This document shows positions 1 to 14,244 of a stretch of DNA of 14,244 bases, piece after piece. How positions within the stretch are numbered: the first letter of the stretch is position 1; each line of letters starts with the position of its first letter. The notes beneath the pieces were generated by a model. It made no database searches. It saw only the letters and a program-made list of their open reading frames with translations, and was not told the DNA's origin. A program made the position numbers and the translations under genes. The DNA comes from a virus (Duplodnaviria; Heunggongvirae; Uroviricota; Caudoviricetes): the IMG/VR virus record IMGVR_UViG_3300029080_000085. The stretch is one strand, 5' to 3'.

Positions 1-228
1 TCAAACATCGTGGCGTTGACAGTTAAGACTGTTGGCATGTTCTGCAACCTGATTGAATCGATTGAAGTTGAATGCCTGGGTGGCGATTACCTGCCCCAGC
101 ATAGAGTTGTCACTTCGCAGAACGTCGTTATCGCTCTGAAGATTACTGGCGTGAGAGCAACTCTTGACGAGAGCGACCGAAAGGCCAGCAATAACGACAA
201 CGCCTATAAGATCCGGATTAATTTTCAT
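1..228 (-). CDS. Short Rz-like membrane protein (75 aa), possibly a truncated i-spanin or rzpQ-like
   Basis: ATG at 228 overlaps the endolysin stop (ATGA). N-terminal hydrophobic segment LIGVVVIAGLSVALV. Stop codon falls exactly at positions 3-1, so the ORF is complete but only about half the length of a typical Rz. Confidence 0.4.
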   Translation of the reverse strand: MKINPDLIGVVVIAGLSVALVKSCSHASNLQSDNDVLRSDNSMLGQVIATQAFNFNRFNQVAEHANSLNCQRHDV

Positions 229-767
229 TGCTCCAGCCCCCAGCACGCCAGTGCGCTTTCCTGATCGCGCCGCTCGACCTGCCCATAACAGCCATTCTTC
301 TGCCCTTTTGTCAGGCGGCAATCACGCCCACCATCTTTTATCCACCAGCGAATCGCCTCGCATGCCCCCTTACGATCATCGGCATTCAGCCGCTTATAAA
401 ACGTCGACGGGAAACACTTACCGGGGCCAATGTTATAGGGACAAAATGACGCTATACCCGCTTTCTGTGGTTCGGTCAGTGGCACTTTAATATTGCGCTC
501 CACCCATGCCAGCGCCTTATCCCGTTCAATGGCGTTAACCTGGTCGCATTTTTCCTTCGACAGTTTCATACCGGGAAAAACGGGTTTTCCATCCACCACC
601 GTGGCACCCCGACAGATGGTCCAGATGCCGGAACCATCGCGGTATGCCGTTGTGTGGTTACCTTCTTTTTCATTCAGAAACTGGTCGAGAATATCAGGCG
701 CAGGCGCACCGACGGCAATCAGTGCCAGAACGGCAGCCGACAGGCCGTATCTGATTTTTACGTTCAT
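225..767 (-). CDS. SAR endolysin (T4-lysozyme-like glycoside hydrolase, R21-like)
   Basis: 180-aa ORF with N-terminal signal-anchor-release-like hydrophobic stretch (LSAAVLALIAVGAPAP) followed by a lysozyme-like core (EGNHTTAYRDGSGIWTICRGAT); sits in a lysis cassette downstream of a pinholin. Confidence 0.8.
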   Translation of the reverse strand: MNVKIRYGLSAAVLALIAVGAPAPDILDQFLNEKEGNHTTAYRDGSGIWTICRGATVVDGKPVFPGMKLSKEKCDQVNAIERDKALAWVERNIKVPLTEPQKAGIASFCPYNIGPGKCFPSTFYKRLNADDRKGACEAIRWWIKDGGRDCRLTKGQKNGCYGQVERRDQESALACWGLEQ

Positions 768-872
768 GGATATTTATCAGGATTTATCGGTTTCTGAACC
801 CTGGATATGTTTATCTGTCCCGGCCTGTTGAATCAGGCAAGGAATAGTTAAATACAATAGAGAGGATTGTTT

Positions 873-1145
873 ATGGACAATAGCACCATTTCTCTACAGG
901 AGTTGCTCGACTGCATTTCCAAGCTTCGGGATGATGTAAATGCCCTTACTGTCGCATTTTCATATCTGGCATTCTCAATTCCCAAGGAACAAATGCAACC
1001 AACACTGGCATCGCTCCAGCTTGAATCACTCAACCCCAAATGGTCCCAGCAACAACAAAATTCTTTCAAGTGGCTGGCGGTATTACTGGAAGAAAAATAT
1101 GCTGGTGAAATTACCATTTCGGCGGAGTCTTCAGAGAACCAGTAA
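873..1145 (+). CDS. Hypothetical 90-aa protein, antisense to the late lysis operon
   Basis: Strong RBS AGAGAGGA 6-7 nt upstream of ATG 873. Convergent with and overlapping the 3' end of the minus-strand ORF 1111-1455 by 35 bp. No recognisable motif. Confidence 0.45.
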   Translation: MDNSTISLQELLDCISKLRDDVNALTVAFSYLAFSIPKEQMQPTLASLQLESLNPKWSQQQQNSFKWLAVLLEEKYAGEITISAESSENQ

Positions 1146-1455
1146 TTCTTCCCGGTAGCTTTCCTTTGTAGGTTATCCACACATTCTGCGCCTCTAAAAT
1201 TATGGGGCGCTTTTCCGGCGACAGCTCATCCCCTTCACATAACCCGGCAGCAACATCCAGGAAGACCTGTCTGATGCTCCTTCTGGCTGCTGCCTCATAA
1301 AACTCCAGCGCGGCACCTTCAACACGGTCCAGCGAGATGTCCAGGTCAAAAATTTCACCGTCAAAGCGTTCTTTGTCCCGTAACGCTAAAGTTACCGTAA
1401 CTTTATTCTCAAAATTGCGGATCCCTTTCACAATCAGTTCATATTTTTGAGTCAT
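1111..1455 (-). CDS. Hypothetical protein between holin and endolysin (YdfR-like, as recalled from the Qin prophage lysis cassette)
   Basis: 114-aa ORF starting 4 nt after the holin stop, with SD GGGGAGAG; position between holin and lysozyme matches the essQ-ydfR-rrrQ arrangement as I recall it. Similarity not verified by search. Confidence 0.55.
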   Translation of the reverse strand: MTQKYELIVKGIRNFENKVTVTLALRDKERFDGEIFDLDISLDRVEGAALEFYEAAARRSIRQVFLDVAAGLCEGDELSPEKRPIILEAQNVWITYKGKLPGRITGSLKTPPKW

Positions 1456-1459
1456 TGAA

Positions 1460-1675
1460 TTACTCTCCCCGTGCAGCCTTACGCTTGTCTTCTTTAATCT
1501 TGAAATAAAGGTTTGTCAGATACGTCAGCAAGCCAAATACCAGACTACCCAGCACACCTATTGCCGCCCACTGTGAGGGCGTGACTTTATCGAGCAACTG
1601 TAAAAACCAGTACCCGGCACTACCTGCTGAGGTGCCATAGGCGACACCCGTTGTTAACTTATCCATGGATTTCAT
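1460..1675 (-). CDS. Class II pinholin (S21-like) with dual-start motif
   Basis: 71-aa [29 protein letters not shown]...[17 protein letters not shown] closely resembles phage 21 / DLP12 EssD-type holins; Met1 and Met4 give the classic antiholin/holin dual start; SD GAGGTG upstream. Confidence 0.85.
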
Positions 1676-1710
1676 AACCCCACCTCGCAGATGCGGGTGC
1701 TGTGTAATGG

Positions 1711-1735
1711 AAATAAAAAGGCCACCTACGTGGCC
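1711..1735 (-). terminator. Intrinsic terminator downstream of the methyltransferase gene
   Basis: Perfect 6-bp stem GGCCAC-CTAC-GTGGCC (1720-1735) followed on the minus strand by a U-run (TTTTTATTT, complement of 1711-1719). Confidence 0.6.
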
Positions 1736-1741
1736 ACCAGA

Positions 1742-2794
1742 TTATTTCCCCACCAGCTCGTTTATCTCTTTCACTGTCTGGTTAAACCGCTCTGACTCAA
1801 GCTCAACACCTAAGGCCCGACGCCCCAGCGCCATTGCTGCTTTTATTGTGGAACCGGATCCCATAAAAAAATCAGCAACCAGATCACCAGGTCGACTACT
1901 GGCATTGATTATTTGCCGGAGCATATCCGCAGGTTTCTCACACGGATGTTTACCCGGGTAGAACTGAACGGGTTTATGCATCCAGACATCGGTATAAGGC
2001 ACGGAGACTGATACGGAGAAATAGCGCCGGAGAGATTTAAACTCATCCAGCAATTCAGAATATTTGCGATTCAGTGAATCATAAGATGCCACCAGCTGGT
2101 GGTGTGGTTGTTCCAGTTGTTGTTCCTGAAACTTCTCTGCCGCTATACGGGAAAACAGTGCCTGTAACTTCCGATAGTCAGCCTCATTCGGCAACTGCCA
2201 CTGACTGGCACCAAACCAGTGGGAAACCATATTTTTCTTACCTGTGGCTTCGGCAATTTGTTTTGCCGTTATACCCAGTTCGGCACGAGCATCCCTGAAA
2301 TACGATATCAGCGGTGCCATTATGTGCTGTTTGAGTTCCCTTTCTTTTGCCGCATAGCCGTCACTTTTGCCGCGATATGGCCCCTGGTAATGTTCAGCAA
2401 ACAGAACGCGCTCTGTGGCAGGAAAATATGCGCGCAGACTTTCTTTATTACACCCATTCCAACGTCCGGACGGCTTCGCCCAGATGATATGGTTAAGCAC
2501 GTTGAAACGTTCACGCATCATGATCTCAATATCAGATGCCAGGCGATGCCCACAGAACAGGTAAAGGCTTCCGGCAGGCTTTAACACCCGCCAGAACTGG
2601 GCCAGACAGTGGTCCAGCCACTTAAGGTAATCTTCGTCCCCTTTCCACTGATTGTCCCAGCCGTTGGGTTTCACCTTGAAGTACGGCGGATCGGTAACAA
2701 TCAGGTCAATGGAATCATCAGGCAGGGACTGAATAAAATGCAGGCAATCAGCGTTGATTAAATCAACACTGTTTATTTTTACAGTATTTTTCAT
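1742..2794 (-). CDS. DNA methyltransferase (beta-class N6-adenine/N4-cytosine family), no adjacent recognisable restriction enzyme
   Basis: 350-aa ORF with motif IV DLIVTDPPYF near the N-terminus and motif I FFMGSGSTIKAAMALGRRALGVELE near the C-terminus (order IV then I). Confidence 0.85.
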   Translation of the reverse strand: MKNTVKINSVDLINADCLHFIQSLPDDSIDLIVTDPPYFKVKPNGWDNQWKGDEDYLKWLDHCLAQFWRVLKPAGSLYLFCGHRLASDIEIMMRERFNVLNHIIWAKPSGRWNGCNKESLRAYFPATERVLFAEHYQGPYRGKSDGYAAKERELKQHIMAPLISYFRDARAELGITAKQIAEATGKKNMVSHWFGASQWQLPNEADYRKLQALFSRIAAEKFQEQQLEQPHHQLVASYDSLNRKYSELLDEFKSLRRYFSVSVSVPYTDVWMHKPVQFYPGKHPCEKPADMLRQIINASSRPGDLVADFFMGSGSTIKAAMALGRRALGVELESERFNQTVKEINELVGK

Positions 2795-2943
2795 GGATCA
2801 GTAAGCGTAACTCTGGTAGGCTCACTCTGCTTTTGCGCTAAAGCAGTGGGCCGTGGTTCGCTTGTGACCAGTAAGCATGAGCGAATGGCTGGCAGGTGCT
2901 ACCAACACCCACCAGCCGCCCATTTTCACAAATTAAAAGCCCT

Positions 2944-3138
2944 TCATTGCTGAAGGCGTCTGTAACAGCCGAACTGGTAATCTGCCAGCCCCGCCATAAC
3001 CAGCTGGGTCAGTATTAACTGACAGCGTTCGCGTGAAAGGTATGTGTTTTGTGCAATCTCCCCGACTGTTGCCGGTTCGATGCTTAATTCATTAAAAACA
3101 ACTTTCGCCGTTTCTGTCATATCTTGCTGTTTTAGCAT
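2944..3138 (-). CDS. Small putative winged-helix-like DNA-binding protein (64 aa)
   Basis: Preferred start ATG 3138 preceded by GAAGGGAAAAAG; the longer ORF-track start at 3162 lacks an RBS. Segment ATVGEIAQNTYLSRERCQLILTQLVMAGL resembles a recognition helix and wing. Fold assignment is inference. Confidence 0.35.
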   Translation of the reverse strand: MLKQQDMTETAKVVFNELSIEPATVGEIAQNTYLSRERCQLILTQLVMAGLADYQFGCYRRLQQ

Positions 3139-3257
3139 GTCTTTTTCCCTTCTGGTTAACATGACATACCAATAACTCTTGTCTAAAAAGCCAGCAAGAT
3201 AAACAGTCAGTATTCACGACCACCAGCGTGTTTACCGTACTGCACCAATGTTTAATT

Positions 3258-3281
3258 TATAAAAAAACCGCGAGAACGCGG
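3258..3281 (-). terminator. Intrinsic terminator downstream of the 176-aa moron ORF
   Basis: Perfect stem CCGCG-AGAA-CGCGG (3268-3281) followed on the minus strand by a 7-nt U-run (complement of A-run 3261-3267). Confidence 0.6.
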
Positions 3282-3319
3282 TAAGTATTGTTAAAAAACC
3301 AACAGTAATTTCACTCAAC

Positions 3320-3850
3320 TTATTTAATACATTCTTTTGCTTGCGCATAATAAATTTTATGAGTATTAGCAAGCTTAACGAAGTTATACTTAACTGCCCC
3401 TAACAGGGTTCCAACTCTTGTATGCCCTTCCATTAAATGGAGCCCTGTTGTATTACTTTTCAGCAAAGCTCGATCTATAAAAAATGGTGGTTCGCACCAT
3501 GTGCCAAAATTACACCAATGCGCTTTTATTTCATCATCCATAAATACATCACCTTTACGGGTCATGTAATCTTCAACGACCTCATGCAAAAAATCAGGGC
3601 AAGTAGCATTATCCCCGATAGTTAAAAAGTTTTTAGTGGGAAGTTCAATCAATTTCCATTCAATTTGGTCAATATCAAGATCCCCATAAAGCTTCTGAAA
3701 TCTGTCATCGCCTACCAATCCATAATAAATCTCCTGAATTACAGGAGAGGGGGCAATGATAGAATATTGCTCACGAAGTATTCTTTCAGCCTCAGGAGCT
3801 TCAAATATGGTTCTTTCTGAGAAAATAGGCAGAAGATCTCGGTATAACAT
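3320..3850 (-). CDS. Hypothetical 176-aa protein; AT-rich moron between Q and the lysis genes
   Basis: Clean ORF, visibly AT-rich relative to flanking phage genes, with its own downstream terminator and a possible SD (GGGG) 6 nt upstream. No family recognised; contains acidic/lysine clusters (GDLDIDQIEWK, GDVFMDDEIK). Confidence 0.6.
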   Translation of the reverse strand: MLYRDLLPIFSERTIFEAPEAERILREQYSIIAPSPVIQEIYYGLVGDDRFQKLYGDLDIDQIEWKLIELPTKNFLTIGDNATCPDFLHEVVEDYMTRKGDVFMDDEIKAHWCNFGTWCEPPFFIDRALLKSNTTGLHLMEGHTRVGTLLGAVKYNFVKLANTHKIYYAQAKECIK

Positions 3851-3882
3851 CCATATCCCCGTGTAAGAAAAAATAATTTAAC

Positions 3883-3902
3883 CCGCTCGGCTGCGGTTTT
3901 TT
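3883..3902. terminator. Terminator-like hairpin in the Q-proximal leader (possible tR'-region element), strand ambiguous
   Basis: CCGC-TCGGCT-GCGG followed by TTTTTT on the plus strand; on the minus strand the same hairpin is followed by GUUAAAUUAUUUUUUU. Only a 4-bp stem. Confidence 0.3.
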
Positions 3903-3943
3903 GGACTTATCAACGGTAGACATACAAAGCCCATCGTTGAGAA

Positions 3944-3972
3944 AATCTTATCCATGTTTTTTGAAAAATGCA
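3944..3972 (-). promoter_or_regulatory. Candidate pR'-like late promoter immediately downstream of Q
   Basis: Minus-strand TTGCAT (3972-3967), 16-nt spacer, TAAGAT (3950-3945). Position after Q matches the lambda pR'/qut arrangement. Hexamers only 4/6 each. Confidence 0.3.
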
Positions 3973-4004
3973 AGCATCATGTCGCTATCTTTGGTGAAAA
4001 TCAT

Positions 4005-4757
4005 TTATCTTGTCACTTTTCTCAATTGCGCTTCAGCATATGCTTCTTCCTGCCAGCACTTTGTAACCAGTTTATCAATGACGTCTGCATATCCTTTGTA
4101 CCACTGATAATCCGTCAGGTCTGTTACCAGATTCTGGACATGATGCCGCGCCAGTGTGGTTGGTAAACGGCTAAACCGATTTCCATTGCAACGCCCACAA
4201 ATCTTATAAACAGGCGTGCCATGAAGCCGGGTCCTTTTTTCATCCAGGACAATACCTTTACCCTTACACCCTCTGCACGCTGTGCTGACTTCTCCCTTAC
4301 CATGACAATGCTGACATAGTTCCTTCACCCACTCTTCCTTGATAACAGATTCCCCGCTTCTGGAGTGTTTCACCACTTCGCGCAATACATTATGAAATCC
4401 AGTACCAGCACAATGCTCACAGCGAGCCTTACTTGCCGCAGACCTGGAATAATCAGCAAAGGCAAAATTCACAAGGTAAGGAATAATCTGTAGCCGGGTT
4501 TCTTCACTCAATTTATTCAATGTCGGGTTATCCAGTGCCATCGCGTAATTGAGCAGACCTTCAATCGCAAACTGAGGATCCTGAACACCAACTTTTGCCA
4601 GGAATAAGGCAAACCCAAGCGGTGCTTTCGACTGCACCATCCCCTGCGCAGCCATCACATCCGTAATTGTTAAACCACCAGAGCCTGTCGCCGGTGCGTC
4701 ATCGCTCAATTTTGGAGATTTTGGGGAGTAATATTTCGGTAAGGCTTCAAGGTTCAT
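4005..4757 (-). CDS. Q: Late-gene antiterminator Q (lambda Q family)
   Basis: Strong recalled similarity to lambda Q: YYSPKSPKLSD...TDVMAAQGM, FAFADYSRSAASKARCEHCAGTG, CGRCNGNRFSRLP, C-terminal ...KVTR; CxxC zinc-finger pairs. Start at MNLEA (4757) preferred, with SD GGAGAA. Confidence 0.85.
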   Translation of the reverse strand: MNLEALPKYYSPKSPKLSDDAPATGSGGLTITDVMAAQGMVQSKAPLGFALFLAKVGVQDPQFAIEGLLNYAMALDNPTLNKLSEETRLQIIPYLVNFAFADYSRSAASKARCEHCAGTGFHNVLREVVKHSRSGESVIKEEWVKELCQHCHGKGEVSTACRGCKGKGIVLDEKRTRLHGTPVYKICGRCNGNRFSRLPTTLARHHVQNLVTDLTDYQWYKGYADVIDKLVTKCWQEEAYAEAQLRKVTR

Positions 4758-4770
4758 GCTCGTTCTCCAC

Positions 4771-5766
4771 TTACGCCAGTACACCTATTGCCAGCGCACG
4801 ATCGATAAAACGAAATATCAGCTCCAGCTGGGAGCCATACTTCTCTTCAAATGCCACGGTATCCGCATGCAGCTCGTCGTGATGCTTTCTGCACAAAGGC
4901 AACACAAAAAGGTCATGCGCTTTTGTTCCCATTCCACCCTGACCGTGACCTATCAGGTGGTGGGGATCATCAGCGGGCTTTCCACAACATGCACACGGCT
5001 GTGTCTTAACCCAGCGCGTGTACTTTTCATTAACCCAGCGGCGACGTTTTGGGCGTAACATAAAAGACTCCGGCGACTCCGGATCCACTTTCAGCGCCAG
5101 CACCTTTTTCGCCTTATCCTGGATGATGCTGGTGGCAGGAACCGAAGGCACAAGGTCACTTTCCCGGGTGACAGACGGCACAACAGGCTTCGGTAATCTC
5201 AGTGCCTTACGGGCTGCACTTTCCGGTAAGGCGTCCGCCAGGTCATTACGAATCAGCCACCAGCACAGTTCCGGCATTGTCACAACGTGACTGTCATCAA
5301 AACCGAGATCCCGACGCACAACAGACAACACCCAGCGGGCACAGTTATCCGTTGCCATTGATTCCAGCCGTTCCGTGAACTGATCGCGCAGCTGGTTATC
5401 GCAGTGCCAGCACAGACGGATTGCGCCCGGAGCGTGTCGCATTGTTGTCATGTTCTCGCTGTGCCAGTCGGAATGAAGCCACTGGCAGCCTTTTTCACGA
5501 AGTAACCAGCTTTCAAGACATTCCACGCCACCAGCACGACGGATCACTGCCTCATTGCGGAACACGGCCCGAACGGCAGGATCATCCGCCAGCGGTTGTG
5601 ATGCCGCGGGAACGGCACCACTGGCGAAAGATGAATAACGTTCCGGCTCAGGCTCCAGCAGGACACGCCCCTGCATAAACAAGGGCATCAGCTCTGAACC
5701 TGGCCTGAACAATACGATCCCCATACGCGGGGCAATTTCAGGGGTCAGTAGTGCTCTCACGGTCAC
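4771..5766 (-). CDS. DUF968-like (YdfU-like) protein with C-terminal HNH-like Cys/His motif
   Basis: 331-aa ORF; C-terminal CACCGKPADDPHHLIGHGQGGMGTKAHDLFVLPLCRKHHDELH; position just upstream of Q as in Qin (ydfU-quuQ). Likely GTG start, 1 nt after the upstream stop. Confidence 0.65.
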   Translation of the reverse strand: MTVRALLTPEIAPRMGIVLFRPGSELMPLFMQGRVLLEPEPERYSSFASGAVPAASQPLADDPAVRAVFRNEAVIRRAGGVECLESWLLREKGCQWLHSDWHSENMTTMRHAPGAIRLCWHCDNQLRDQFTERLESMATDNCARWVLSVVRRDLGFDDSHVVTMPELCWWLIRNDLADALPESAARKALRLPKPVVPSVTRESDLVPSVPATSIIQDKAKKVLALKVDPESPESFMLRPKRRRWVNEKYTRWVKTQPCACCGKPADDPHHLIGHGQGGMGTKAHDLFVLPLCRKHHDELHADTVAFEEKYGSQLELIFRFIDRALAIGVLA

Positions 5767-9721: not shown

Positions 9722-9943
9722 TAGGTCCACCTCGCCTGATGTGGCTAAAAGCAGGCACATAACAGCTAAGTATTTTCAACCAGAGAGAATCCTTAGCGTT
9801 GTGGTGAATGCGGCTCAGCGCACGCGGGTTAAGGTTGAGGCTGACAGTCGACCTTCTGTGGATACCCACCCGCCTGGTGTGCAACCTTCGCCAGGCACCG
9901 GGAGGCACCCGGCACCACAACTTTATGCTGTGTGTAGTCTTGG

Positions 9944-9988
9944 CGGTACCAGCTTGTACCCTTGCTTCCGGCTGGTACCGTCCTTTTT
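9944..9988 (+). terminator. Strong hairpin with U-tract inside the GC-rich block (candidate tL-type terminator)
   Basis: Perfect 10-bp stem CGGTACCAGC / GCTGGTACCG (9944-9953 / 9971-9980), 17-nt loop, followed by TCCTTTTTA. Confidence 0.45.
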
Positions 9989-10201
9989 ACAAAACAGAGA
10001 AGAGCATCACCGGACGACGGGCTCATAACCCAATCCATCCGGGCGGCTGCCACCGCAGGTGTTCTTCTCTGTTTTGTGGAGAAACTAACCGCCCCTACGG
10101 GGGCATTTATGGAAATGTAATTGACTCAATAATCGCCGGACGGTGAGGGCTTCCTTTTACCGGAATTCAGCGCGGTGCAGCGCATATACGTGGAGAACAA
10201 A

Positions 10202-11396: not shown

Positions 11397-11746
11397 TGGA
11401 GCCATACAGCCTCACACTCGATGAGGCCTGTCATTTTCTCAAGATATCCAGACCGACTGCCATTAACTGGATACGCACAGGGCGTCTTCAGGCAACACGC
11501 AAAGATCCCACTAAGAATAAATCTCCTTACCTCACAACACGACAAGCCTGCATTGCGGCTCTTCAGTCTCCGCTGCATACTGTCCAGGTGAGCGCGGGTG
11601 ATGGCATAACAGAGGAAAGAAAATGTCACTCTTCCGCAGAGGTGAAATATGGTACGCCAGTTTCACATTGCCGAACGGTAAAAGATTTAAACAGTCTCTT
11701 GGAACAAAGGACAAAAGGCAGGCGACAGAACTCCATGACAAGCTAA
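11396..11746 (+). CDS. xis: Excisionase (P22-type Xis)
   Basis: 116-aa [43 protein letters not shown]..., winged-helix Xis-like; SD AAGAGGTGA; 3' end overlaps the int start, as in lambda/P22. Confidence 0.75.
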
Positions 11747-12786
11747 AGGCTGAAGCATGGCGGGTCAGCAAACTTGGTGAAATACCTGATATAACGTTCG
11801 AGGAAGCTTGTGTCAGGTGGCTTGAAGAGAAAGCACATAAAAAATCACTGGACGATGACAAAAGCCGGATCGGATTCTGGCTTCAACATTTCGCAGGAAT
11901 GCAACTAAGAGACATTACTGAATCAAAAATTTATTCAGCAATGCAGAAAATGACGAACCGGCGTCATGAGGAAAACTGGAAACTCAGGGCAGAAGCATGC
12001 AGAAAAAAAGGGAAACCTGTTCCAGAATACACGCCAAAACCAGCGTCCGTTGCAACGAAGGCTACGCATCTTTCATTTATAAAGGCCCTACTAAGAGCCG
12101 CAGAGCGTGAATGGAAAATGCTGGATAAGGCACCAATTATTAAAGTGCCTCAACCAAAGAATAAACGGATCCGCTGGCTGGAGCCCCATGAAGCACAAAG
12201 GCTGATTGATGAATGTCCGGAGCCATTAAAGTCTGTTGTTGAATTTGCACTGGCAACAGGCTTAAGACGCTCGAACATCATCAACCTTGAATGGCAACAA
12301 ATAGATATGCAGCGCCGGGTGGCATGGATAAACCCGGAAGAGAGTAAATCAAACCGCGCAATTGGCGTTGCGCTGAATGATACTGCATGTCGCGTATTGA
12401 AAAAACAAATCGGGAATCATCACCGTTGGGTATTTGTGTACAAGGAAAGCTGTACCAAACCAGACGGAACGAAAGCGCCAACAGTAAGGAAGATGCGGTA
12501 TGACGCAAACACAGCCTGGAAAGCGGCGCTGAGACGGGCTGGTATTGATGATTTCAGATTTCACGACTTGAGACACACCTGGGCAAGTTGGCTGGTTCAA
12601 GCCGGAGTCCCGTTGTCAGTGTTACAGGAAATGGGAGGCTGGGAGTCTATCGAAATGGTTCGTCGATATGCTCACCTTGCACCTAATCACCTTACCGAAC
12701 ACGCACGGCAAATAGACTCGATCCTGAACCCATCGGTCCCAAATTTGTCCCAGTCAAAAAATAAGGAAGGTACTAATGATGTGTAA
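11623..12786 (+). CDS. int: Tyrosine integrase (P22 Int-like) targeting tRNA-Thr
   Basis: 387-aa ORF beginning [48 protein letters not shown]; catalytic region [39 protein letters not shown] (R...HxxR...Y); ends 14 nt from the tRNA. Confidence 0.9.
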
Positions 12787-12800
12787 CTTATTGATTTTAA

Positions 12801-12876
12801 TGGTGCCGATAATAGGAGTCGAACCTACGACCTTCGCATTACGAATGCGCTGCTCTACCAACTGAGCTATATCGGC
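12801..12876 (-). tRNA. thrW: tRNA-Thr (anticodon CGU), thrW-type; prophage attachment site
   Basis: Reverse complement is GCCGATATAGCTCAGTTGGTAGAGCAGCGCATTCGTAATGCGAAGGTCGTAGGTTCGACTCCTATTATCGGCACCA: cloverleaf-compatible, anticodon loop ATTCGTAAT, encoded CCA end. Confidence 0.9.
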
Positions 12877-12990
12877 CCTGAAAGGACATGTTCACGAACG
12901 TGAATCACGGTGGACAAGGTTAAAACTAACCGGGCGATGCGTCAATGGCCTTGTGAATCAAATGGCTACTTTTGCATCACCCGGTTTTAT

Positions 12991-14244
12991 TTACGCACGA
13001 ATGGTGTAATCACCAATACCGATCCACTTGTAAGTGGTCAGTGCTTCCAGCCCCATTGGGCCACGCGCGTGGAGTTTTTGTGTGCTTACCGCCACTTCCG
13101 CACCTAGTCCAAACTGGCCGCCGTCGGTAAAACGCGTAGAGGCGTTAACGTAAACAGCGGACGAATCCACTTCGTTAACAAAACGCTGGGCGTTGCGCAT
13201 ATCGCGGGTCAGGATCGCATCGGAGTGTTGTGTGCCGTGTTCACGAATATGGGCGATGGCATCGTCAAGATCACTGACGATTTTGACGTTCAAATCTAAT
13301 GACAGAAACTCATCGTCATACTCTTCCGCTTTAACAGCCACCACCTTCGCGGGGCCTGTCTGCAACTGCGCCAGCGCAGCTGCATCTGCGTGTAATGCCA
13401 CGCCGCTTTCCTCCATTTGTTTGCTTAATGCGGGCAGGAAGCTATCGGCGATGTTTTTATTCACCAGCAACGTTTCTACCGTATTACATGTGCTCGGACG
13501 CTGAGTTTTCGCGTTGACGATCACTTTTAATGCTTCAGCAATCTCTACACTTTCATCAACATAAATATGGCATACGCCTATACCACCTGTGATCACCGGG
13601 ATCGTCGACTGTTCGCGGCACAGTTTATGCAAACCAGCGCCACCACGCGGGATCAGCATGTCGATGTATTTATCCATACGCAGCATTTCACTGACCAGCG
13701 CACGGTCAGGATTATCAATCGCCTGCACGGCACCCACCGGTAAGCCACAGGATTTCAGGGCGTCCTGAATCACCGCCACCGTTGCCGCGTTAGTGCGACA
13801 GGTTTCTTTACCGCCACGCAGAATCACTGCGTTACCGGTTTTCAGGCACAGCGAAGCGACATCAACCGTCACGTTCGGGCGCGCTTCATAAATCACGCCA
13901 ATAACCCCCAGCGGTACGCGACGACGCTCAAGACGCAGGCCGCTGTCCAGTACGCTGCCATCGATTACCTGCCCCACCGGATCGGCGAGGTTACACACCT
14001 GGCGCACATCATCGGCAATGCCTTTCAGCCGTGCGGGCGTCAGTGCCAGACGGTCAAGCATCGCTTCGCCAAGGCCATTGGCACGCGCGTCAGCAACATC
14101 CTGGGCGTTAGCGTTGAGGATGATTTCGCTTTGTGCTTCCAGTTCATCGGCGATTTTTTCCAGCACGCGATTTTTTTCGCGGCTGGAGAGTTGCGCTAAT
14201 TTATACGAGGCTTGCTTCGCGGCAATGCCCATTTGTTCCAGCAT
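12991..14244 (-). CDS. proA: Gamma-glutamyl phosphate reductase (ProA), complete, start codon at the window edge
   Basis: 417-aa [41 protein letters not shown] ... [20 protein letters not shown], matching enterobacterial ProA as recalled; proA-thrW adjacency is the classical E. coli arrangement. Confidence 0.95.

What the first reader, a model, noticed from the sequence alone, without database searches (positions are those of the whole stretch)
1711..3138. Orphan beta-class DNA methyltransferase with an upstream small putative winged-helix protein, bounded by terminators
The methyltransferase has canonical DPPY and FxGxG motifs but no recognisable restriction endonuclease beside it. A 64-aa ORF with a winged-helix-like segment sits upstream, and the unit ends in a strong terminator before the holin. 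It could be an anti-restriction orphan methylase, or part of an atypical R-M or modification-dependent module with the nearby 176-aa ORF.
Basis: partly seen in the sequence, partly recalled or inferred. Interest (0 to 1): 0.5.

Follow-up and report, generated by a model that had tools for sequence, protein, structure and literature searches.

The report
Prophage M.EcoGII-type adenine methylase cassette
The gene is an ordinary, already characterised kind of prophage enzyme (a relative of M.EcoGII that methylates adenines without sequence preference, probably to shield newly made phage DNA from restriction), but it is preceded by a conserved folded RNA leader that no database describes and that may control this toxic enzyme.

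Summary
A 350-aa beta-class MTase (1742-2794) follows a real 64-aa winged-helix gene (2944-3138). Intrinsic terminators flank them, in the late operon of a lambdoid prophage between antiterminator Q and the holin.

The MTase is not novel. It is 100% identical to the phage cdtI methylase, 81% to M.EcoGII and 89% and 70% to two reconstructed ancestors. All three of the latter are experimentally non-site-specific m6A methyltransferases, silent in lysogens and toxic. MTase plus leader occurs in 1269 of 5426 complete E. coli genomes.

The best reading is a Q-dependent anti-restriction cassette.

The 176-aa ORF is not a partner. It is an AT-rich moron inserted in the T-tract of tR', it occurs with or without the MTase, and it has a weak ParB/Srx-like fold.

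The winged-helix gene is a frequent neighbour (56 of 76 species-level loci) but a dispensable one. Its function is unknown.

The unexpected part is the 149-nt "gap" between the two genes. It is a conserved structured leader:
- 53 covariance-model hits, from Escherichia to Vibrio phage VHML.
- Compensatory changes in 21 of 28 pairs.
- No Rfam match.
- Alternative helices and possible occlusion of the Shine-Dalgarno-less start codon.

Its function is untested.

The parts
4005..4784 (-). Late antiterminator Q gene (context; defines the start of the late operon)
   Evidence: PF03589 Antiterm, E=4.3e-53. RefSeq annotates the identical region as an antitermination protein.
3945..3973 (-). Candidate late promoter pR' (TTGCAT-17 nt-TAAGAT). 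Inferred, not mapped.
   Evidence: The sequence is conserved with the Q-to-terminator interval of phage SfV. It is too weak for the consensus scan, which found no minus-strand promoter-like site in 1-5000.
3874..3896 (-). Remnant of the tR' hairpin, its T-tract disrupted by the ORF176 insertion
   Evidence: Alignment with SfV: AACCCGCCGCTGAGCGGGTTTTTTT in SfV (annotated there as a terminator) against AACCGCAGCCGAGCGGGTTAAATTATTTTTT here.
3320..3850 (-). 176-aa ORF: an independent AT-rich moron, possibly ParB/sulfiredoxin-like. Not a partner of the MTase.
   Evidence: Family and composition: phrog_8867, unknown function. Only 14 homologues among 5.8 billion clusters. GC 0.35-0.40 against about 0.5 in the flanks.

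Context: always the first gene after Q, with or without an MTase.

3267..3282 (-). Strong intrinsic terminator carried by the ORF176 cassette; functionally the first efficient terminator after pR'
   Evidence: ACCGCGTTCTCGCGGT followed by TTTTTTTATAA. It lies inside the segment that is absent from SfV.
2944..3138 (-). 64-aa winged-helix protein gene (phrog_331, SfV orf47); a frequent but dispensable upstream neighbour of the MTase
   Evidence: Start and coding: SD AAGGGA 8 nt before the ATG. Codon-position differences 148:116:449.

Fold: AF2 pLDDT 88.8, H-H-H-beta-beta. Foldseek finds generic wH domains (OhrR/MarR, IclR, O-methyltransferase dimerisation domains, SelB RNA-binding domain), E about 2e-3, TM 0.7-0.8. 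Sub-threshold Pfam DprA_WH, TrmB and MarR_2 hits.

Synteny: upstream of the MTase in 56 of 76 species-level loci and 115 of 121 viral loci. Two alleles at 51% identity sit next to identical MTases.
2941..2956 (-). Terminator-like hairpin P0 overlapping the wH stop codon, immediately 5' of the leader
   Evidence: CCTTCAGCAATGAAGG followed by GCTTTTAATT. An equivalent GC-rich hairpin with a T-rich tail precedes the leader in 37 of 53 covariance-model hits, including loci without the wH gene.
2795..2935 (-). Conserved structured leader of the MTase gene. Three-way junction: P1 2922-2918 with 2851-2847; P2 2917-2906 with 2898-2887; P3 2885-2880 with 2862-2857. P4 is 2846-2840 with 2833-2827. Alternative helices: 2923-2919 with 2881-2877, and 2853-2850 with 2821-2818. 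The P3 loop GGUCA (2869-2865) can pair with UGAUC (2800-2796) just 5' of the AUG.
   Evidence: Stability: MFE z=-3.0.

Distribution: covariance model R1 finds 53 copies directly upstream of MTase starts. These include untrained hits in Yersinia phage P840 (58 bits), Vibrio phage VHML (48 bits) and PhiR46_1 (36 bits).

Covariation: 85.6% of cells paired against 29-53% when partners are slid; 21 of 28 pairs have compensatory changes; 0 of 500 shuffles reach this. Loop-to-start pairing is 88.7%. The alternative helix is 91.7% paired, and RNAalifold proposes a further alternative.

Selection: nucleotide identity 0.80 against 0.54 at third codon positions of the adjacent gene.

No Rfam match.
1742..2794 (-). 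350-aa beta-class N6-adenine DNA methyltransferase of the M.EcoGII family (SfV orf48; identical to the phage cdtI methylase)
   Evidence: PF01555, E=2.2e-42. 100% identical to the phage cdtI gene. 81% to M.EcoGII, 89% to Anc291 and 70% to SUPREM. Weak HTH_3 hit at residues 167-193, inside the region where M.EcoGII's HTH-containing target-recognition domain is modelled (PMC11551740). No Shine-Dalgarno sequence before the ATG.
1720..1735 (-). Strong intrinsic terminator between the MTase and the holin
   Evidence: GGCCACGTAGGTGGCC followed by TTTTTATTTC. The equivalent site is annotated as a rho-independent terminator in SfV.
1460..1675 (-). P21-type holin S (context; first lysis gene of the late operon)
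   Evidence: PF04971, E=2e-35.

Best explanation
The locus is a late-operon cassette of a lambdoid prophage integrated at thrW next to proA. Its core gene encodes a member of the M.EcoGII family: beta-class N6-adenine methyltransferases that methylate adenines in essentially any sequence context.

Proposed mechanism:
1. The cassette has no recognisable promoter of its own. It lies downstream of pR' behind two to three intrinsic terminators: the ORF176 cassette terminator at 3282-3267, hairpin P0 at 2956-2941, and the damaged tR'.
2. In the lysogen the toxic enzyme is therefore not made.
3. After induction, Q-modified RNA polymerase reads through these terminators and through the one at 1735-1720 into the lysis genes.
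4. The MTase is then made late, together with the lysis and morphogenesis proteins. It methylates replicated phage DNA before packaging, and the progeny are protected against adenine-sensitive type I, II and III restriction in the next host.

What is shown and what is inferred:
- Shown here: family membership, gene order, the terminators, the absence of a promoter-like site, and conservation of the architecture.
- Taken from the literature on close relatives: non-specific activity, toxicity and silence in lysogens.
- Inferred: Q-dependent expression and the anti-restriction benefit.

Two conserved accessories precede the gene:
- A 64-aa winged-helix protein of unknown role. It is frequent but dispensable.
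- A roughly 140-nt structured leader that runs exactly up to the Shine-Dalgarno-less AUG. It most likely sets or gates translation of the MTase (inferred).

The 176-aa ORF is an unrelated moron inserted in tR'.
For: Family membership:
- PF01555 with DPPY before FxGxG.
- 81% full-length identity to M.EcoGII, 89% to Anc291 and 70% to SUPREM. All three were shown to be non-site-specific (PMC5778455; PMC11551740).
- 100% identity to the phage cdtI methylase.

Published biology of the family:
- Prophage-borne, not expressed in the lysogen, deleterious when expressed, and presumed to be switched on at induction (PMC5778455).
- No motif assigned in lysogen methylomes (PMC6602927).

Context:
- Q, then wH, then MTase, then terminator, then holin. 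The order is the same in SfV, phiP27 and Stx2 phages.
- In more distant Yersinia and E. coli phages the MTase again lies directly upstream of the holin.
- Terminators at 3282-3267, 2956-2941 and 1735-1720, and no minus-strand promoter-like site in 1-5000.
- MTase plus leader is present in 1269 of 5426 complete E. coli genomes.

Leader.

wH gene.

ORF176 independence.
Against: - No activity, expression or methylome data exist for this exact protein. It differs from M.EcoGII at about 19% of positions, so some sequence preference cannot be excluded.
- The M.EcoGII, Anc291 and SUPREM sequences were read from a machine-converted PDF supplement and contain a few recognition errors, so the identities are approximate.
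- pR' and the read-through are inferred from lambdoid paradigms. The candidate promoter matches the consensus poorly (7 of 12).
- I found no paper in the held library showing hyper-methylated virion DNA or a restriction-evasion phenotype for this family.
- Extensive m6A would expose the phage to m6A-dependent type IV enzymes, so the net benefit depends on the host.
Confidence: 0.75

Rival explanations
1. The small winged-helix protein is a dedicated regulator of the MTase. It could be a transcriptional controller binding the palindromic part of the leader DNA (GCTTTAGCGC(A/T)AAAGC). Alternatively, by analogy with Mu Com and mom, it could be a translational activator that binds the leader RNA and frees the start codon.
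For: - Tight, conserved synteny across Enterobacterales: 56 of 76 loci and 115 of 121 viral loci.
- Predicted helix 3 (RCQLILTQLV) is conserved between the two alleles, which are otherwise 51% identical.
- A Foldseek hit includes the RNA-binding wH domain of SelB.
- The leader can occlude the region just 5' of the AUG.
- The precedent is Mu com/mom: a small protein gene upstream of a toxic, late, anti-restriction adenine-modifying gene (PMC6483171; PMC12707154).
Against: - 20 of 76 loci keep the leader and MTase with unrelated genes upstream, and their leaders look no different.
- A terminator-like hairpin separates wH from the leader.
- The wH protein has no similarity to Com (a zinc finger) or to Xre-type C proteins.
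- The fold is generic.
- In four viral loci wH is kept while the MTase has been replaced.
Confidence: 0.2
2. The MTase is a sequence-specific orphan enzyme with an epigenetic or regulatory role in the lysogen. This is what the reader's proposed lysogen methylome test assumes.
For: - Many orphan phage MTases are sequence-specific.
- This protein differs from M.EcoGII at about 19% of positions.
Against: - It falls inside the clade bracketed by three experimentally non-specific enzymes (PMC11551740).
- Homologues give no motif in lysogen methylomes (PMC6602927).
- There is no own promoter, and terminators lie upstream.
- The position is in the late operon.
Confidence: 0.08
3. The MTase, the wH protein and the 176-aa ORF form one atypical restriction-modification or modification-dependent module.
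For: - They are adjacent here.
- The 176-aa protein has a weak ParB/sulfiredoxin-like fold, a fold that recurs in DNA-modification-linked proteins such as DndB and the GmrSD N-domain.
Against: - ORF176 accompanies the same MTase in only 3 of 80 viral loci.
- Its homologues occur after Q without any MTase.
- It is a discrete AT-rich insertion with its own terminator, absent from SfV.
- No nuclease or defence-system model matches it.
Confidence: 0.04
4. The conserved 'leader' does not act as a sense-strand mRNA structure. It could be an antisense RNA, a DNA-level site (operator or recombination hotspot), or simply a transcript-stabilising or processing element with no regulatory switch.
For: - Over the whole modelled structure, A.C mismatches (72) outnumber G.U pairs (23), so strand preference is not settled.
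- The apex of P4 is a DNA palindrome in many copies.
- Mosaic junctions fall at or inside the element.
Against: - P2 keeps complementarity while its sequence changes almost completely (Proteus, Gilliamella, Yersinia phage, VHML). That fits a folded single strand, not a protein operator.
- The alternative helix AUGGG:CYCRU varies only through G.U to G-C and U-A to U.G, which favours the sense strand.
- The element always ends exactly at the MTase AUG.
- No promoter-like site for an antisense transcript was found.
Confidence: 0.2

Closest known systems
M.EcoGII (and M.EcoGI) of E. coli O104:H4 C227-11, the non-specific adenine DNA/RNA methyltransferase (Murray et al. 2018, PMC5778455)
   Same: - Same family and length: 350 aa here against 349.
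- 81% identity over the full length, including the central target-recognition region.
- Beta-class motif order.
- Encoded on lambdoid prophages.
- M.EcoGII-type genes (about 97% to the published sequence, locus L268) carry the same upstream leader.
   Different: It is a different allele, with about 19% of residues differing, and its activity has not been measured. The published work used the cloned ORF. In what I read of those papers, the upstream winged-helix gene, the leader and the terminator context are not described.
Phage Mu com-mom
   Same: - A toxic, late-expressed enzyme that modifies adenines to evade restriction.
- Silent in lysogens.
- Preceded by a small nucleic-acid-binding protein gene.
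- The mRNA leader structure involves the start region (PMC6483171 abstract; PMC12707154).
   Different: There is no sequence or fold relationship. Com is a zinc finger and Mom is an acyltransferase-like enzyme. Here the small protein is a winged helix, it is separated from the leader by a terminator-like hairpin, it is dispensable in a quarter of loci, and no interaction has been shown.
SfV orf47/orf48, phiP27 L23/L24, and the Q-to-stx interval of Stx2 phages
   Same: The same module is present: wH gene, a gap of about 150 nt, then the MTase, downstream of Q. Nucleotide identity is 96.5% in SfV. In phiP27 and Stx2a phages the proteins are 81-83% (MTase) and 90-94% (wH) identical.
   Different: In Stx phages, tRNA genes and stxAB follow the MTase. 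SfV lacks the ORF176 insertion. In those records the genes are annotated only as 'unknown', 'DNA methylase' or 'TrmB family regulator'.
Morons of lambdoid phages (extra genes with their own terminator inserted between conserved genes)
   Same: ORF176 is a discrete insertion with lower GC and its own terminator, placed between Q/pR' and the next late gene.
   Different: No own promoter was detected. It appears to use the constitutive pR' transcript, because it replaced the T-tract of tR' (inferred).

Membership tests
M.EcoGII family of non-specific beta-class N6-adenine methyltransferases | N6_N4_Mtase (PF01555) catalytic domain | tested here: met
   E=2.2e-42, residues 29-341.
M.EcoGII family of non-specific beta-class N6-adenine methyltransferases | Beta-class order: catalytic DPPY N-terminal, central target-recognition domain, FxGxG C-terminal | tested here: met
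   DPPY at residues 35-38 and FMGSG at 310-314. The order is as described for M.EcoGII in PMC5778455.
M.EcoGII family of non-specific beta-class N6-adenine methyltransferases | Close full-length similarity to M.EcoGII, including the four-helix HTH target-recognition domain (residues about 160-237) | tested here: met
   81% identity with 2 gaps over 349 aa. 89% to Anc291 and 70% to SUPREM. Weak HTH_3 hit at residues 167-193. The reference sequences come from an OCR-read supplement.
M.EcoGII family of non-specific beta-class N6-adenine methyltransferases | Methylates adenine in any sequence context (also ssDNA and RNA) | not testable with these tools
   Inferred by bracketing between three tested enzymes. 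It needs LC-MS or restriction-protection assays on the cloned enzyme.
M.EcoGII family of non-specific beta-class N6-adenine methyltransferases | Prophage-encoded and silent in the lysogen | tested here: inconclusive
   Prophage late-operon position, upstream terminators and no promoter-like site fit silence. Expression itself was not measured.
Type II restriction-modification system | A cognate restriction endonuclease gene next to the MTase | tested here: not met
   The neighbours are a holin, a DUF1327 protein, the wH protein, ORF176 and Q. None matches a nuclease or defence model in Pfam, NCBIfam or PADLOC.
C-protein (controller) regulated R-M systems | An Xre-type HTH controller of about 80 aa, upstream of and co-transcribed with an endonuclease gene, with C-box operators | tested here: not met
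   The small protein is a winged helix, with only sub-threshold DprA_WH, TrmB and MarR hits. There is no endonuclease, and a terminator-like hairpin follows the gene.
Mu com-mom type translational control | A small upstream protein that binds the leader RNA and opens a start-codon-sequestering stem | tested here: inconclusive
   The arrangement is analogous, and a loop-to-start-region pairing is conserved (88.7% of cells). There is no homology to Com, binding is untested, and wH is absent from 20 of 76 loci.
Any described RNA family (Rfam 15), including SAM/SAH riboswitches | Match to a curated covariance model | tested here: not met
   No hit at E<=1 in the leader, either in the window or in five divergent loci.
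ParB/sulfiredoxin-fold superfamily (for the 176-aa ORF) | ParB/Srx fold with the conserved (D/E)G-x-x-R loop | tested here: inconclusive

The most novel reading that the evidence does not exclude
The conserved leader (2795-2935, minus strand) may be an undescribed class of cis-regulatory RNA that gates translation of M.EcoGII-family methyltransferases. It would be a two-state switch: a three-way junction P1-P2-P3 with the P3 loop pairing to the start region, against the alternative helices AUGGG:CUCAU and AGGC:GCCU. The trigger could be a protein (possibly the neighbouring winged-helix protein, as Com does for mom) or a metabolite such as SAM or SAH. Either way, a lethal, genome-wide adenine methylase would be made only at the right time and dose.
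Probability: 0.4. Interest if true: 0.65.

Novelty: already known. Interest (0 to 1): 0.38.

Why it matters
The MTase itself adds nothing new. It is one more copy of a very common prophage enzyme family whose founding member is a commercial reagent.

Two things are worth keeping:

1. The context gives a concrete, testable account of how such a toxic enzyme is kept off in lysogens and switched on at induction. It has no promoter, it sits behind several terminators, and it depends on Q read-through. The M.EcoGII paper left this as a conjecture.

2. The family carries a deeply conserved, structured 5' leader that is not in Rfam and that ends at a start codon with no Shine-Dalgarno sequence, often with a small winged-helix gene in front. 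If the leader is a regulatory switch, it would be a new RNA element controlling a DNA-hypermodification function in roughly a quarter of complete E. coli genomes and in many Stx-converting phages.

The case also shows that lysogen methylome sequencing cannot be used to dismiss such genes.

Tried and rejected
- Rfam at E<=1 on the whole window and on five divergent loci: nothing in the leader.
- A leader peptide: the 34-codon ORF starting at the conserved AUGGGC is broken by indels and stops in other copies (by inspection), so it was rejected.
- A promoter inside the cassette: the scan found no minus-strand promoter-like site.
- A sequence-level family for the wH protein: only sub-threshold Pfam, NCBIfam and PADLOC hits, and nothing significant in PDB sequences. 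The fold search gives only generic wH domains. No DpnI-like m6A-reader match appeared among the top hits, so the idea that it is an m6A reader stays pure speculation.
- A sequence-level family for ORF176: nothing in Pfam, even at E<=10 over 10 members, and nothing in PDB.
- Deciding the strand of the leader from G.U against A.C counts: inconclusive. The count is 23 against 72, but many A.C cells come from doubtful or misaligned pairs.
- Co-variation between wH presence or allele and leader sequence: none seen.
- AlphaFold-database fold search: library not available.
- Literature search for in vivo hypermethylation of induced phage DNA by this family: none found in the held library.
- Supplementary tables of the M.EcoGII paper are not held. 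The sequence was taken from the SUPREM paper's supplement instead.
Full report
**What is there**

The window is a lambdoid prophage integrated at tRNA-Thr(CGT) next to proA. The landmarks are the tRNA at 12801-12876, the integrase at 11623-12786 and proA at 12991-14244.

Everything in the finding is on the minus strand, inside the late operon, between the antiterminator Q gene (4005-4784, PF03589) and a P21-type holin (1460-1675, PF04971). In transcription order the elements are:
- Q.
- A conserved promoter-like interval.
- The 176-aa ORF (3850-3320).
- A strong terminator (3282-3267).
- The 64-aa ORF (3138-2944).
- A weak terminator-like hairpin over that ORF's stop codon (2956-2941).
- A 149-nt gap.
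- The MTase (2794-1742).
- A strong terminator (1735-1720).
- The holin.

The MTase has PF01555 at E=2.2e-42, DPPY at residues 35-38 and FMGSG at residues 310-314, which is the beta-class order.

**The methyltransferase is a known enzyme type**

Its protein is 100% identical to the 'putative DNA methylase' of phage cdtI. The DNA is 96-98% identical in SfV (orf48), mEp460 and Ayreon, and 100% identical in several E. coli chromosomes, where RefSeq calls it 'DNA-methyltransferase'.

I took the M.EcoGII sequence from the supplement of the SUPREM paper (PMC11551740). That text is machine-read, so it contains a few character errors. Against it the window protein is:
- 81% identical over the full length to M.EcoGII.
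- 89% identical to the reconstructed ancestor Anc291.
- 70% identical to SUPREM/Anc284.

M.EcoGII methylates adenine in any context. Its gene sits on a prophage, is not expressed in the lysogen, and is deleterious when expressed constitutively. The authors proposed that it is switched on as the prophage excises (PMC5778455). The ancestors are likewise largely non-sequence-specific (PMC11551740). [quoted passage not shown] Homologues gave no assignable motif in STEC lysogen methylomes (PMC6602927).

The window enzyme lies inside this bracket, so non-specific m6A activity is the most likely property. It has not been measured for this allele. MTase plus upstream gap is found in 1269 of 5426 complete E. 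coli genomes, with up to 8 copies per genome.

**How it most likely works**

No sigma-70-like site was found on the minus strand anywhere in 1-5000. The cassette lies behind intrinsic terminators and in front of the lysis genes.

In SfV the same order is annotated: Q, terminator, orf47, orf48, terminator, S. The order recurs in phiP27 and Stx2a phages, where tRNAs and stx follow the MTase. In more distant Yersinia and E. coli phages the MTase is again directly upstream of the holin.

The simplest mechanism follows the lambdoid paradigm. pR' transcripts stop at the first terminators in the lysogen. Q-modified polymerase reads through all of them after induction, so the MTase is made late and methylates phage DNA before packaging. 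The anti-restriction benefit is the literature's presumption. I found no direct in vivo test in the held library.

**The small ORF**

It is a real gene:
- The ATG at 3138 has an AAGGGA sequence 8 nt upstream.
- Homologues from 15 species differ from it 148:116:449 at codon positions 1:2:3.
- Two alleles only 51% identical keep the reading frame next to identical MTases.

AlphaFold2 gives a confident minimal winged helix (pLDDT 88.8). Foldseek matches only generic wH domains (OhrR/MarR, IclR, the dimerisation wH of O-methyltransferases, the RNA-binding wH of SelB) at E about 2e-3. Its PHROG family (phrog_331) has no known function.

It sits immediately upstream of the MTase in 115 of 121 viral loci and 56 of 76 species-level loci from Escherichia to Xenorhabdus and Proteus. 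In the other 20 loci unrelated genes occupy the place: membrane proteins, a zinc-ribbon protein, a peptidase-like protein, an IS110 transposase. In four viral loci the wH gene is kept while the MTase has been replaced. It is thus a frequent but dispensable neighbour. A regulatory role is possible and unproven.

**The 176-aa ORF**

It is not part of the module.
- It accompanies the same MTase in 3 of 80 viral loci.
- It has only 14 homologues in the large protein collection.
- Those homologues always follow Q: with wH and MTase downstream in Hafnia, but without any MTase in Citrobacter and Enterobacter.

Alignment with SfV shows a 630-bp, 35-40% GC insertion exactly in the T-tract of tR', bringing its own strong terminator. 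It probably rides on the constitutive pR' transcript in the lysogen. This is an inference.

**The unexpected part: the 'gap' is a conserved structured leader**

The 149 nt between the wH stop and the MTase ATG fold more stably than shuffles (z=-3.0). They are nearly identical next to both wH alleles and well conserved in phiP27 and Stx2a phages.

Across one-genome-per-species loci the same roughly 140-nt element precedes the MTase start, with or without the wH gene. A covariance model built from 36 copies found 53, all ending at the MTase AUG. These include untrained hits in Yersinia phage vB_YenS-P840 (58 bits), Vibrio phage VHML (48 bits; its MTase is only 48-49% identical) and PhiR46_1 (36 bits).

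Support for the structure:
- On the model-based alignment, 85.6% of cells form pairs, against 29-53% when partners are slid.
- 21 of 28 pairs show compensatory changes.
- No shuffle reaches the observed values. Related sequences can inflate that last control.
- By eye, P2 keeps 10-13 pairs while its sequence is almost completely replaced in Proteus, Gilliamella, the Yersinia phage and VHML.
- The invariant UGGGC/GCCCA helix (P1) shows the double changes A-U (Mixta) and G-C (Gilliamella).
- The leader's nucleotide identity to the window averages 0.80, against 0.54 at third codon positions of the adjacent gene.

Features that suggest a switch:
- The 5' strand AUGGGC has a second conserved partner (CYCRU), which varies only through wobble changes.
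- The 3' strand of P1 has a second partner (GCCU, 91.7% paired).
- The conserved P3 loop GGUCA can pair with UGAUC immediately 5' of the start codon, which has no Shine-Dalgarno sequence (88.7% paired against 18-38% slid).

Other observations:
- A terminator-like hairpin directly precedes the element in 37 of 53 copies.
- There is no Rfam match.
- Among 121 exact-pattern hits in viral contigs, 101 are followed by a full MTase. Most of the rest are contig ends or degraded genes. In four, recombination has cut the element after P2.
- Strand assignment from G.U against A.C counts is ambiguous.

I read the element as a cis-acting 5' leader that sets or gates MTase translation. Whether it is a switch, and what it senses, is untested. 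The nearest functional analogy is Mu com-mom (PMC6483171), without any homology.

**Verdict**

The finding as written describes a real but ordinary and already characterised kind of gene. The anti-restriction reading is supported, and the R-M or partner reading is not.

The leader RNA, and to a lesser degree the wH gene and the tR' insertion, are the parts that merit follow-up.

Noticed in passing
window 2795-2935 (-); also L002-L006 and L087-L166, directly upstream of the MTase starts: The 'intergenic gap' is a conserved structured leader of about 140 nt: a three-way junction plus a hairpin, alternative helices, and possible pairing to the start region. It is found upstream of M.EcoGII-family MTases from Escherichia to Vibrio phage VHML, and it is absent from Rfam 15.
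   Followed up: yes
window 3243-3896 (-), compared with SfV locus L295 3258-3512: The 176-aa ORF cassette (AT-rich, with its own terminator) is inserted exactly in the T-tract of the late terminator tR'. The ORF now lies between the constitutive late promoter region and the first efficient terminator, so it may be expressed in the lysogen.
   Followed up: partly
window 3320-3850 (-): The 176-aa protein has invariant GTWxEPP and EGHTRxGxLLG motifs and weak, concordant structural similarity to ParB/sulfiredoxin-fold proteins (ParB nuclease domain, PadC, sulfiredoxin, DndB-like, GmrSD-N). The family is rare (14 clusters) and always follows Q.
   Followed up: partly
window 2857-2878 and 2795-2808 (-): There is a direct repeat, GCTTACTGGTC / GCTTACTGATC, inside the leader: once in the P3 loop and once just before the ATG. 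The full repeat is specific to the E. coli-type copies. A GATC (Dam) site adjoins the start codon in most copies.
   Followed up: no
L183, L221, L247, L266 (viral contigs): In four phages the leader is cut after hairpin P2, and a 237-aa AT-rich gene of unknown function replaces the MTase while the winged-helix gene is kept. This marks a recombination junction inside the element.
   Followed up: partly
window 9768-9991 (+): A sub-threshold match to the Rfam sRNA STnc100 (43.4 bits against a gathering score of 47, E=9.5e-7), in the early region near the repressor genes.
   Followed up: no
window 11623-14244: The prophage end consists of the integrase (11623-12786, +), tRNA-Thr(CGT) (12801-12876, -) and proA (12991-14244, -). 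This is integration at thrW beside proA. From memory, it is the site used by CP4-6 in K-12.
   Followed up: partly
window 867-1145 (+) and 1111-1455 (-): A 92-aa ORF (phrog_2411, unknown function) lies on the opposite strand. It overlaps the 3' end of the DUF1327/YdfR gene, between the holin and the lysozyme. RefSeq annotates a slightly shorter form, starting 6 nt downstream, as hypothetical.
   Followed up: no
window 4005-4784 (-): The Q antiterminator carries CxxCxGxG repeats that give a sub-threshold DnaJ zinc-finger match (PF00684, 30.9 bits against a cut-off of 32.7) in addition to the Antiterm domain.
   Followed up: no
L287-L289 (Hafnia) and L004 (Yersinia phage P840): Some phages carrying this late MTase also carry a second MTase in the early region (MT-A70, another N6_N4_Mtase, or a Dam-like enzyme). 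In one Hafnia-type contig (L289) a HicAB toxin-antitoxin pair follows the late MTase; in the Yersinia phage a HicAB pair lies upstream of it.
   Followed up: no
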